Shown here in pieces: positions 32,952 through 35,577 of a stretch of DNA of 64,000 bases (positions within the stretch are counted from its first letter, which is position 1; the number at the start of each line of letters is the position of its first letter). Source of the DNA: Escherichia coli (GTDB lineage Bacteria > Pseudomonadota > Gammaproteobacteria > Enterobacterales > Enterobacteriaceae); NCBI RefSeq assembly GCF_003334785.1, contig NZ_QOWV01000019.1. One strand, written 5' to 3'. Made by a program: the position numbers and the translations under genes. Under the pieces are notes generated by a model, which had not been told where the DNA came from, did no database searches, and saw only the letters and a program-made list of their open reading frames with translations.

Positions 32952-33899
32952 TTGCTTGCGGACTGGTTCAGTGAGCAATTCTCAACGGGCGTGTTGATCG
33001 TGCCTTGTATGCTGACGTTGGCTATTCCTGGAGTGCTGCCGCGCTTTAAAGCAGAACAGATGATGCCCGCCATCGCGCTTATTGTGTCGGTTATTGCCTC
33101 GGTAGTCATTGGCGGAGCGGGGAGTCTGGCGTTCCCGCTGCCTGCATTAATCTGGTGTGCAGTGCGCTATACGCCGCAGGTAACATGTCTGTTGACCTTT
33201 GTCACCGGTGCGGTGGAAATCGTACTGGTGGCAAATTCGGTGATTGATATCTCGGTCGGTTCGCCGTTCTCCATTCCGCAAATGTTCTCCGCACGTCTCG
33301 GTATTGCCACGATGGCGATATGCCCAATTATGGTTTCTTTTAGCGTGGCAGCGATCAATTCGCTAATGAAGCAAGTTGCGCTGCGAGCCGACTTTGATTT
33401 TCTGACTCAGGTTTACTCACGGTCCGGTCTTTATGAGGCGCTGAAAAGTCCATCGCTGAAACAGACACAACATCTGACTGTCATGCTGCTTGATATCGAC
33501 TATTTCAAAAGCATTAACGATAACTATGGACATGAATGTGGCGATAAAGTGTTAAGCGTGTTTGCCCGGCATATTCAGAAGATTGTCGGTGATAAGGGGC
33601 TGGTGGCGCGAATGGGCGGCGAAGAATTTGCTGTTGCAGTGCCGTCGGTGAATCCTGTCGATGGTCTGCTAATGGCGGAAAAAATCCGTAAAGGCGTTGA
33701 ACTGCAACCATTCACCTGGCAACAAAAAACGCTTTATCTCACGGTAAGTATTGGCGTCGGTAGTGGTCGCGCATCGTACCTAACGCTGACCGATGACTTT
33801 AATAAATTGATGGTCGAAGCCGATACGTGTCTGTATCGCTCGAAGAAAGATGGGCGCAACCGTACCAGCACTATGCGTTACGGTGAGGAAGTTGTCTGA
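32952..33899 (+). CDS. dgcF: Membrane-anchored diguanylate cyclase DgcF (GGDEF), 315 aa
   Basis: ORF track; N-terminal TM helices; GGEEF motif (RMGGEEFAVAV). Confidence 0.8.
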   Translation: MLADWFSEQFSTGVLIVPCMLTLAIPGVLPRFKAEQMMPAIALIVSVIASVVIGGAGSLAFPLPALIWCAVRYTPQVTCLLTFVTGAVEIVLVANSVIDISVGSPFSIPQMFSARLGIATMAICPIMVSFSVAAINSLMKQVALRADFDFLTQVYSRSGLYEALKSPSLKQTQHLTVMLLDIDYFKSINDNYGHECGDKVLSVFARHIQKIVGDKGLVARMGGEEFAVAVPSVNPVDGLLMAEKIRKGVELQPFTWQQKTLYLTVSIGVGSGRASYLTLTDDFNKLMVEADTCLYRSKKDGRNRTSTMRYGEEVV

Positions 33900-34125
33900 C
33901 ATCTTTATTCATTACGCGCGATTTGAATGCAATGTGTTCTACCACTTTATGATCCAGGAAAAGGCGTTTTTCCTCGATTAAACCATGATCCGCGCCACAC
34001 TTTTCTCATAAAACTGCTCATTAATCATCAGGAGTTGATCAAAACAGGGGTTCGGCGTATTAAAGTTTGCTAACCTGTCGTACCAATTCAAACAGGTTGT
34101 ATGACTAATCAGAAGGGAACCCATT

Positions 34126-35577
34126 GTGAAAACACTAAATCGTCGCGATTTTCCCGGTGCACAGTATCCAGAACGTATCATTCAGTTTGGTGAAGGTAAC
34201 TTCCTGCGCGCCTTTGTTGACTGGCAAATCGATCTCCTGAATGAGCACACCGATCTGAATTCTGGCGTGGTCGTTGTTCGTCCGATTGAAACTTCATTCC
34301 CGCCGTCACTGAGCACGCAGGATGGTCTGTACACCACCATTATCCGTGGCCTGAATGAGAAGGGGGAAGCGGTCAGCGACGCGCGTCTGATTCGCTCGGT
34401 TAATCGTGAAATCAGCGTCTACAGTGAATACGATGAATTCCTGAAACTGGCGCACAACCCGGAAATGCGCTTTGTTTTCTCTAACACCACCGAAGCGGGT
34501 ATCAGCTACCATGCGGGCGATAAATTCGATGACGCGCCAGCGGTAAGCTATCCGGCAAAACTGACCCGTCTGCTGTTCGAACGCTTTAGCCATTTCAACG
34601 GTGCGCTGGATAAAGGTTGGATCATCATTCCGTGTGAGTTGATTGACTACAATGGCGACGCGTTGCGTGAACTGGTGCTGCGCTATGCGCAAGAGTGGGC
34701 ACTGCCAGAAGCATTTATTCAATGGCTGGATCAGGCTAACAGCTTCTGTTCTACGCTGGTGGACCGTATCGTTACCGGTTATCCGCGCGATGAAGTGGCT
34801 AAACTGGAAGAAGAACTGGGTTATCACGATGGTTTTCTCGACACCGCTGAACACTTTTACCTGTTTGTGATTCAGGGACCGAAATCCTTAGCGACTGAAC
34901 TGCGTCTGGACAAATATCCGCTCAACGTGCTGATTGTTGACGATATTAAACCGTACAAAGAACGCAAAGTGGCAATCCTCAACGGTGCGCACACCGCGCT
35001 GGTGCCGGTGGCGTTCCAGGCAGGGCTGGATACCGTAGGTGAAGCGATGAACGATGCTGAAATTTGCGCATTCGTTGAAAAAGCTATCTACGAAGAAATT
35101 ATTCCGGTACTGGATTTGCCTCGTGATGAACTGGAATCTTTCGCCAGTGCAGTCACCGGGCGTTTCCGTAACCCGTACATTAAGCATCAGCTGCTGTCTA
35201 TCGCGCTCAACGGTATGACCAAGTTCCGCACCCGCATCCTGCCACAGCTGCTGGCAGGGCAGAAGGCAAACGGCACACTTCCGGCGCGCCTTACTTTCGC
35301 ATTAGCGGCATTGATTGCGTTCTATCGTGGTGAGCGTAACGGCGAAACATATCCGGTACAGGACGATGCACACTGGCTGGAACGTTATCAGCAACTCTGG
35401 AGCCAGCATCGTGACCGTGTTATCGGCACCCAGGAACTGGTAGCGATTGTTTTGGCAGAAAAAGACCACTGGGAGCAGGACCTGACGCAAGTGCCTGGTC
35501 TGGTCGAGCAGGTTGCTAATGACCTGGATGCGATTCTCGAAAAAGGGATGCGCGAAGCTGTACGTCCGTTGTGCTAA
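34126..35577 (+). CDS. uxaB: Altronate oxidoreductase (tagaturonate reductase) UxaB, 483 aa, GTG start
   Basis: ORF track; [30 protein letters not shown]. Confidence 0.9.

What the first reader, a model, noticed from the sequence alone, without database searches (positions are those of the whole stretch)
34071..34098. Inverted repeat in the uxaB promoter region
AACCTGT-N13-ACAGGTT, with a central GTACCAATT, lies ~30 nt upstream of the uxaB GTG start. It is a candidate operator for the hexuronate repressor.
Basis: inference. Interest (0 to 1): 0.25.

Follow-up and report, generated by a model that had tools for sequence, protein, structure and literature searches.

The report
ExuR operator boxes at uxaB promoter
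The 7-bp inverted repeat is real but no rarer than chance; it lies on the long-known promoter/operator region where the hexuronate repressor ExuR switches off E. coli uxaB, and the likely recognition units are two adjacent 18-bp boxes, not the repeat arms.

Summary
The window is E. coli K-12-like, and 34126-35577 is uxaB. AACCTGT (34072-78) / ACAGGTT (34092-98) with spacer CGTACCAATTCAA is present; the start coordinate is 1 nt off. Alone it is not unusual: 32% of shuffles of the intergenic region contain such a repeat, and the window holds 238.

The location does matter. An ExuR weight matrix was trained only on uxaC, exuT and exuR operators from nine genera. Five of its six best hits among 127,966 window positions (four distinct sites) fall upstream of uxaB:
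- Box 1, 34072-34089 (minus strand), rank 3.
- Box 2, 34093-34110, rank 6.
- Two distal boxes, 33931-48 and 33888-906, ranks 1, 2 and 4.

Box 1 covers the published -10 (CTAACCT) and the transcription start (about 34086). Boxes 1 and 2 are found 20-21 bp apart in 57 of 80 Enterobacteriaceae species.

The repeat itself is not conserved. It is perfect in only 4 of 81 sequences, with no compensatory changes. Its left arm is the outer half-site of box 1; its right arm straddles the start of box 2, two bases out of register.

It is already known biology and of low interest.

The parts
34072..34078 (.). Left arm of the reported inverted repeat (AACCTGT). It is the outer half-site of ExuR box 1 and overlaps 5 of the 6 bases of the -10 hexamer.
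34092..34098 (.). Right arm of the reported inverted repeat (ACAGGTT). It covers one flanking base plus the first six bases of ExuR box 2. It matches the exuT-type half-site ACAAGTT in 6 of 7 positions, but sits 2 nt out of register with the box 2 half-site AGGTTGT.
34072..34089 (-). ExuR box 1 (proximal operator O1). It reads GAATTGGTACGACAGGTT on the minus strand and spans about -14 to +4 relative to the transcription start.
   Evidence: PWM rank 3 of 127,966 at 14.3 bits; rank 4 of 63,983 with the E. coli-only palindromic matrix; present in 67 of 80 species
34093..34110 (+). ExuR-like box 2 (candidate O2), CAGGTTGTATGACTAATC, about +8 to +25. It shares GTTGTATGAC with the exuT operator.
   Evidence: PWM rank 6 at 10.8 bits; near-invariant block; at least 8 bits in 65 of 80 species, 20-21 bp from box 1
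34068..34076 (+). Extended -10-like element TGcTAACCT. CTAACCT (34070-34076) is the -10 given in the literature. The pattern TGnTAAnnT is conserved across species.
   Evidence: PMC4447067 Table S3; conservation
34083..34086 (+). uxaB transcription start. The published coordinate, 1608744 in U00096.2, converts to 34086. Canonical spacing from the -10 would predict 34083.
   Evidence: The conversion offset of 1976 rests on the lpp check, which uses the 38-nt lpp leader from memory.
34035..34055 (+). Near-invariant block TTGATCAAAACAGGGGTTC, centred about -41 to -44. It is a probable CRP/FNR-type activator site (TTGAT half-site).
   Evidence: conservation; FNR ChIP peak and an FNR site overlapping the CRP site at uxaB, PMC3688515. 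The assignment is inferred.
33931..33948 (-). Distal ExuR-type box, AAAGTGGTAGAACACATT on the minus strand, about -155 to -138.
   Evidence: rank 1 in the window with both matrices; conserved in Escherichia and Citrobacter
33888..33906 (.). Second distal ExuR-type box, palindromic (GAAGTTGTCTGACATCTT). It overlaps the dgcF stop codon.
   Evidence: ranks 2 and 4; present only in Escherichia
34113..34118 (+). Shine-Dalgarno-like AAGGGA, 7 nt before the GTG.
   Evidence: read from the sequence; conserved
34126..35577 (+). uxaB coding sequence (tagaturonate reductase / altronate oxidoreductase), GTG start.

Best explanation
The repeat sits in the promoter-operator region of uxaB, a gene of the ExuR (exu) regulon. 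The working units are two adjacent 17/18-bp ExuR-type boxes of the form AAnT(G/T)GT-N3-ACAAnTT.

Box 1 (34072-34089, read on the minus strand) covers the -10 element CTAACCT and the transcription start. Box 2 (34093-34110) lies at about +8 to +25, two helical turns downstream.

Inferred mechanism: without hexuronate inducer, dimers of ExuR, a GntR/FadR-family repressor, occupy these boxes and keep RNA polymerase from binding or opening the promoter. An inducer derived from galacturonate or glucuronate releases ExuR. A CRP/FNR-type activator at about -41 to -44 then drives transcription.

The 7-N13-7 repeat is a by-product. Both arms resemble the half-site ACAAGTT, in opposite orientations. The left arm is the true outer half of box 1. 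The right arm lies one helical turn beyond the true inner half of box 1 (ACCAATT) and overlaps the start of box 2.

Shown here: the motif match, the position relative to the promoter, and conservation. Inferred: binding by ExuR, steric occlusion, and the role of box 2.
For: (1) De novo motif search on eight E. coli ExuR/UxuR-regulon intergenic regions, with uxaB excluded, converges on AAATTGGTTAACCAATTT.
(2) The uxaC, exuT and exuR operators are nearly invariant in nine genera. An oriented matrix built from them places four distinct sites of the dgcF-uxaB spacer among the six best of 127,966 window positions: box 1 at rank 3 and box 2 at rank 6. The Poisson probability of four such sites in 247 nt is about 1e-11.
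(3) Box 1 scores at least 8 bits in 67 of 80 species and box 2 in 65 of 80. Both are present in 57, always 20-21 bp apart. In most genera box 1 is AAGTTATTACACCAATCT, almost the same as the E. coli uxaC operator AAGTTATCACACCAATTT.
(4) The published experimentally validated start, 1608744, with -10 CTAACCT (PMC4447067 Table 1 and Table S3), maps to 34086 and 34070-76. Box 1 therefore spans -14 to +4.
(5) ExuR is stated to repress uxaB (PMC8612250), and uxaB is induced together with the hexuronate genes (PMC10016265).
(6) The repeat is at chance level and is not conserved or compensated. An E. coli variant breaks it while raising the ExuR score of box 1 from 14.3 to 18.2 bits.
Against: No binding data for ExuR on this DNA could be read here; the primary papers (Blanco and Mata-Gilsinger 1986; Mata-Gilsinger et al. 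1983; Rodionov 2000; Suvorova 2011) are not held.

Box 2 scores poorly with the palindromic ExuR/UxuR matrix (rank 174-525). It is more invariant than transcription-factor sites usually are, so it may have another or an additional role in the 5' UTR.

The matrix has only three independent operator families behind it.

The published start lies 9 nt from the -10, which is unusually far, so positions carry an uncertainty of about 3 nt.

Several other lineages carry different perfect repeats flanking box 1. Some selection for flanking symmetry is therefore not excluded.
Confidence: 0.75

Rival explanations
1. The 7-N13-7 inverted repeat is itself the operator: one ExuR oligomer, or another symmetric regulator, contacts AACCTGT and ACAGGTT, which lie 20 bp apart centre to centre.
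For: The arms are perfectly complementary. The axis (34085) coincides with the mapped transcription start. Both arms resemble the ExuR half-site ACAAGTT. Other lineages show different repeats around the same box.
Against: The repeat is at chance frequency. Complementarity is 7/7 in only 4 of 81 sequences, the median is 3/7, and left-arm changes (CC to GT) are never compensated on the right. E. coli and Escherichia variants break it. The conserved ExuR operators elsewhere are 17/18-bp units with a 3-bp gap between half-sites, not 13 bp. The repeats in other lineages differ in position and spacing (N4, N13, N14, N20), which does not fit a single protein.
Confidence: 0.08
2. Box 1 is the only ExuR operator. 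The invariant block 34093-34110, including the right arm, is conserved for another reason, such as a 5'-UTR element affecting translation or stability, an sRNA target, or the site of another regulator.
For: Box 2 is more invariant than box 1 and persists in a degenerate form in Franconibacter and Siccibacter, which lack box 1. Its score with the palindromic matrix is weak. It lies inside the transcript at +8 to +25.
Against: Its core GTTGTATGAC is identical to the exuT operator core. It ranks 6 of 127,966 with the ExuR-specific matrix. It keeps a fixed 20-21 bp distance from box 1. There is no Rfam match.
Confidence: 0.25
3. The repeat forms an RNA or DNA hairpin, acting as an attenuator or terminator of read-through from dgcF, or as a cruciform.
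For: The predicted RNA stem-loop has a free energy of -8.3 kcal/mol and a z-score of -1.8.
Against: 10 of 200 shuffles fold at least as well. No U-tract follows, and the terminator scan finds nothing. The uxaB start lies between the arms, so the uxaB mRNA lacks the left arm. There is no covariation and no Rfam match.
Confidence: 0.03
4. The repeat is a pure coincidence in ordinary promoter DNA, and the region carries no repressor site.
For: The repeat is at chance level. The left arm overlaps the -10 element, which alone would constrain it.
Against: ExuR-type boxes cluster here with P of about 1e-11. The boxes are conserved in orthologous promoters. ExuR control of uxaB is documented.
Confidence: 0.03

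Closest known systems
ExuR operators of uxaC, exuT and exuR (exu regulon, Enterobacterales)
   Same: The 18-bp pattern is the same, AAAkTkGTATrAyAAnTT. Box 1 on the minus strand, GAATTGGTACGACAGGTT, agrees with it in 15 of 18 positions, and box 2 shares GTTGTATGAC with the exuT operator. Like the inferred exuT arrangement, the box overlaps the core promoter next to a CRP-type site. The cognate regulator gene next to exuT carries GntR + FCD domains.
   Different: In E. coli, box 1 is weaker (14 bits) than the training operators and than box 1 in most other genera (17-25 bits). uxaB has two tandem proximal boxes plus, in Escherichia and Citrobacter, distal boxes.
UxuR operators (gntP-uxuA, uxuR, uidA, uidR): AAATTGGTTAACCAATTT
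   Same: The repressor is a paralogue and the outer half-site AAnTTGGT is shared. PMC11806353 states that the two regulators share a conserved motif.
   Different: UxuR sites are even palindromes, TGGT-N2-ACCA. With the UxuR-only matrix, box 1 scores -1.0 (rank 298) and box 2 scores -15.
FadR-subfamily GntR operators in general (17-bp TGGT-N3-ACCA type)
   Same: The layout is a 7-3-7 half-site arrangement bound by a winged-helix dimer that overlaps a promoter (general knowledge of the family; not tested here).
   Different: The specificity bases differ. No FadR or other family matrix was run.

Membership tests
ExuR operator (exu regulon) | Sequence match to the ExuR binding motif, derived independently of the site | tested here: met
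   Box 1 ranks 3 and box 2 ranks 6 of 127,966 window positions with a matrix from uxaC, exuT and exuR operators of nine genera. Box 1 ranks 4 of 63,983 with the E. coli-only matrix.
ExuR operator (exu regulon) | Located in the control region of a gene repressed by ExuR, overlapping the core promoter | tested here: met
   It lies upstream of uxaB. ExuR represses uxaB (PMC8612250). Box 1 spans about -14 to +4 relative to the published start and -10.
ExuR operator (exu regulon) | Conservation of the site in orthologous promoters | tested here: met
   Box 1 is present in 67 of 80 species and box 2 in 65 of 80, with constant 20-21 bp spacing.
ExuR operator (exu regulon) | Direct binding by ExuR, released by hexuronate inducer; operator-constitutive mutations map to it | not testable with these tools
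   The primary papers are not held. The Genetics 1983 paper on exu operators appears only as a reference.
   7/7 in 4 of 81 sequences; 50 of 81 have 3 or fewer complementary positions; no compensatory changes. Variants within Escherichia break it.
UxuR operator | Match to the even palindrome TTGGT-N2-ACCAA | tested here: not met
   With the UxuR-only matrix, box 1 scores -0.97 (rank 298) and box 2 scores -15.4.
Intrinsic terminator / structured RNA | A stable GC-rich stem followed by a U-run, or a match to a known RNA family, within a transcript | tested here: not met
   No terminator-like site. Fold energy z-score -1.8. No Rfam hit at E up to 1. The transcription start lies between the arms.

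The most novel reading that the evidence does not exclude
In Escherichia, uxaB would be controlled by four ExuR boxes rather than one operator. The proximal pair is O1/O2. The distal pair (33888-33906 and 33931-33948) lies 43 bp apart at the dgcF stop codon. The distal pair appeared in the Escherichia/Citrobacter lineage, where O1 is weaker. It could strengthen repression by looping or by raising the local repressor concentration, or it could act as a roadblock to read-through from dgcF. I could not check whether RegulonDB or RegPrecise already list these distal boxes.
Probability: 0.3. Interest if true: 0.3.

Novelty: already known. Interest (0 to 1): 0.12.

Why it matters
It adds little. ExuR control of uxaB and the exu operators have been studied since the 1980s, and the ExuR/UxuR motifs have been described by comparative genomics. 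The useful outcome is a correction of the anatomy. The repressor site is an 18-bp box over the -10 and start site, with a second box two helical turns downstream. The 7-bp arms noticed by eye are not the site. This matters for anyone mutating the operator or building ExuR-based galacturonate/glucuronate biosensors. The distal boxes are a small lead on how operator strength and number trade off between lineages.

Tried and rejected
- LexA box: the arms contain CTGT...ACAG, but the spacing is 13, not 8. Rejected by inspection.
- CRP site inside the repeat: no TGTGA-N6-TCACA. Rejected by inspection.
- Sigma-70 consensus scan: no hit in 33850-34200. The promoter is non-canonical (extended -10, activator-dependent), so the published start was used instead.
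- KdgR-like reading of the 34035-34055 block: the halves are one base too far apart. Not pursued.
- Looping phase: the distal-to-proximal distance is 141 bp here but 18 bp longer in another E. coli lineage, so no conserved phasing.
- Literature: Suvorova 2011, Bates Utz 2004, Thomason 2015 and Mata-Gilsinger 1983 are not held. The supplements of PMC11806353, PMC4161252 and PMC2760140 held nothing on ExuR or uxaB.
- Variation within E. coli: the proximal 111 bp is at least 99% identical in 5054 of 5412 records, so it says little beyond a few variants.

Full report
WHAT IS THERE. The window around the finding is 100% identical to E. coli K-12 MG1655 and is present in 5410 of 5426 complete E. coli genomes. 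The ORF 34126-35577 is annotated as uxaB, tagaturonate reductase, with a GTG start. The upstream gene on the same strand is dgcF, which ends at 33899. The repeat is as described: AACCTGT at 34072-34078 and ACAGGTT at 34092-34098, with the spacer CGTACCAATTCAA. The stated start coordinate is one base too far left. The right arm ends 27 nt before the GTG.

IS THE REPEAT UNUSUAL? No. A perfect 7-nt inverted repeat with a spacer of 0-30 nt occurs on average 0.53 times per dinucleotide-preserving shuffle of the 226-nt spacer, and 32% of shuffles have at least one. The 64-kb window holds 238 such repeats. As RNA the stem-loop is weak: -8.3 kcal/mol, z-score -1.8, and 10 of 200 shuffles fold as well. 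No terminator-like site or Rfam family matches.

THE EXUR/UXUR MOTIF, DERIVED WITHOUT UXAB. I fetched the MG1655 control regions of uxaC-exuT, exuR, gntP-uxuA, uxuR, lgoR-lgoD, lgoT, uidA and uidR. A seed-free palindromic expectation-maximisation search, started from all 1096 18-mers, converged on AAATTGGTTAACCAATTT. With a matrix of the eight best E. coli sites, the best hit in the whole window is 33931-33948. The box 34072-34089 (AACCTGTCGTACCAATTC) ranks 4th of 63,983 positions. A matrix from the five UxuR-type sites alone scores that box at -1.0 (rank 298), whereas a matrix from the three ExuR-type sites ranks it 3rd.

To get an ExuR-specific matrix I took ExuT homologues and fetched their loci from Enterobacter, Dickeya, Yersinia, Pantoea, Citrobacter, Cedecea, Pectobacterium and Rahnella. 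In each locus exuT is followed by a GntR+FCD regulator gene. All eight genera plus E. coli carry the uxaC operator AAGTTATCACACCAATTT and the exuT operator AAAGTTGTATGACAAGTT, nearly unchanged. All but Rahnella, which has no hit above threshold upstream of exuR, also carry the exuR operator AAAGTGGTATAACAAATA. Put in one orientation, these give AAAkTkGTATrAyAAnTT (18.8 bits). This is a 7-3-7 arrangement of the half-site AAnT(G/T)GT.

SCANNING THE WINDOW WITH THAT MATRIX. Among 127,966 positions on both strands, the top hits were:
- Rank 1: 33931-33948 (minus strand), AAAGTGGTAGAACACATT, 16.4 bits.
- Ranks 2 and 4: 33888-33906, a palindromic site that overlaps the dgcF stop codon.
- Rank 3: 34072-34089 (minus strand), GAATTGGTACGACAGGTT, 14.3 bits. 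This is box 1.
- Rank 6: 34093-34110 (plus strand), CAGGTTGTATGACTAATC, 10.8 bits. This is box 2.
Only one hit of at least 10.7 bits lies anywhere else in the 64 kb. The Poisson probability of four distinct sites in 247 nt is about 1e-11.

COMPARATIVE EVIDENCE. One scan of species-representative genomes returned 80 Enterobacteriaceae uxaB loci with 84-99% protein identity. The alignment of the upstream regions shows these conserved blocks:
- 34035-34055, TTGATCAAAACAGGGtTTC.
- 34068-34076, TGnTAAnnT.
- 34082-34088, ACCAAT.
- 34093-34110, nearly invariant.
- The ribosome-binding region.
Box 1 scores at least 8 bits in 67 species and box 2 in 65. Both are present in 57 species, always 20 or 21 bp apart. 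In most genera box 1 reads AAGTTATTACACCAATCT, practically the same as the E. coli uxaC operator, and scores 17-25 bits. The Escherichia/Citrobacter clade has the weaker AACCT(G/A)T variant, and only this clade has the distal box of the 33931 type.

The repeat does not share this conservation. Arm complementarity is 7/7 in 4 of 81 sequences and 3 or fewer in 50. The left arm changes from CC to GT while the right arm keeps GG, so nothing is compensated. Within Escherichia, three variants break the repeat. One of them (strain OkiPb01679, AACCTATCATACCAATTC) raises the ExuR score of box 1 from 14.3 to 18.2 bits.

PROMOTER GEOMETRY. PMC4447067 lists an experimentally validated uxaB start at 1608744 (U00096.2 coordinates) and gives the -10 as CTAACCT within AAGTTTG-CTAACCT-GT.... 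The uxaB start codon is at 1610680 in NC_000913.3. The coordinate offset of 1976 was checked on lpp, using the 38-nt lpp leader, which I know from memory. The start therefore maps to 34086 and the -10 to 34070-34076. The canonical distance from the -10 would put the start at 34083, so I give 34083-34086.

With these coordinates:
- Box 1 spans about -14 to +4.
- Box 2 spans about +8 to +25.
- The invariant TTGATC block is centred near -41 to -44, the position of class II CRP/FNR sites.
PMC3688515 reports an FNR ChIP peak whose centre converts to about 34080, and an FNR site that overlaps the CRP site at uxaB. The axis of the repeat (34085) coincides with the start site, but the left arm is upstream of the transcript.

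HOW THE REPEAT ARISES. Both arms are copies of the exuT-type half-site ACAAGTT (6 of 7 matches) in opposite orientations. The left arm (34072-78) is the real outer half of box 1, and its partner is ACCAATT at 34082-88, three bases away. The right arm (34092-98) lies exactly 10 bp beyond that partner and overlaps the first half-site of box 2 (AGGTTGT, 34094-34100), two bases out of register. The segment AAnTT of the half-site is itself self-complementary, so partial complementarity between neighbouring half-sites is expected. This is inference from the sequences.

MECHANISM. I commit to the following, at 0.75. ExuR dimers bind box 1, and probably box 2 on the same face of the helix, and this excludes RNA polymerase from the -10 and start region. 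Hexuronate-derived inducers release ExuR, and a CRP-type activator at about -42 is then needed for expression. The accessible literature supports the regulatory link: ExuR represses exuT, uxaC, uxaB and uxaA (PMC8612250), and uxaB is induced with the other hexuronate genes (PMC10016265; PMC5934670). Binding and occlusion themselves are inferred.

Rival readings and my estimates:
- The repeat as the true operator: 0.08.
- Box 2 conserved for another reason: 0.25, which concerns only that part of the model.
- A hairpin: 0.03.
- No repressor site at all: 0.03.

COMPARISON AND NOVELTY. This is a member of the ExuR operator family on three tested criteria: motif, position and conservation. The fourth criterion, direct binding, cannot be tested here. 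It is not a UxuR-type site. ExuR control of uxaB and the exu operators are textbook-level knowledge; a 1983 Genetics paper on the exu operators is cited. Novelty is therefore 'already known' and interest is low. The one modest lead is the distal pair of boxes and the apparent trade-off between a weaker proximal box and added distal boxes in Escherichia and Citrobacter. I could not check whether curated databases already list those boxes.

Noticed in passing
window 33931-33948: The best ExuR-type hit of the entire 64-kb window with both matrices (minus strand AAAGTGGTAGAACACATT), about 155-138 nt upstream of the uxaB start. It is conserved in Escherichia and Citrobacter only.
   Followed up: partly
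window 33888-33906: A palindromic ExuR-type box, GAAGTTGTCTGACATCTT, that overlaps the dgcF stop codon (33897-33899), 43 bp from the previous box. Found only in Escherichia. The distance to the proximal boxes differs by 18 bp between E. coli lineages.
   Followed up: partly
window 34035-34055: A near-invariant block, TTGATCAAAACAGGGGTTC, containing a TTGAT half-site and a GATC, centred about -41 to -44 from the start. It is probably the CRP/FNR site mentioned in PMC3688515, but it has only one good half-site for either consensus.
   Followed up: partly
window 33984-33999: A CRP-like CATGA-N6-CCACA, moderately conserved across species, at about -92 to -95 from the start.
   Followed up: no
L018-L083, -65 to -30 relative to uxaB: Other lineages have different perfect inverted repeats flanking box 1: Enterobacter-type TGATAAG-N13-CTTATCA, Klebsiella AACCTGA-N20-TCAGGTT, K. 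indica with 10-nt arms, and Intestinirhabdus with 11-nt arms (AACCTGTTGGA-N4-TCCAACAGGTT). 58 of 81 sequences have none. Whether this recurrence is more than a by-product of quasi-palindromic half-sites is unexplained.
   Followed up: partly
L066, L074, L077, L079 (Franconibacter, Siccibacter): Box 1 is absent. The TTGATC block, the TGnTAnnnT element at the same spacing, and a degenerate box 2 (CAGGTTGTCTGATAATAATC) remain.
   Followed up: no
L090, L091, L092, L095, L096: In Dickeya, Yersinia, Pantoea, Pectobacterium and Rahnella, a uxaB-like mannitol-dehydrogenase-family gene directly follows uxaC. The stand-alone uxaB promoter therefore appears to be a feature of Enterobacteriaceae.
   Followed up: no
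window 33952-33978: An inverted repeat, ATCCAGGAAAA / TTTTCCTCGAT (91% complementary, 5-nt loop), about 55 nt after the dgcF stop. It is possibly a weak terminator and was not called by the terminator scan.
   Followed up: no
window 22860-22877: The only ExuR-matrix hit of at least 10.7 bits outside the uxaB upstream region (minus strand AAAGTTTTATTACAAGAT). Its gene context was not examined.
   Followed up: no
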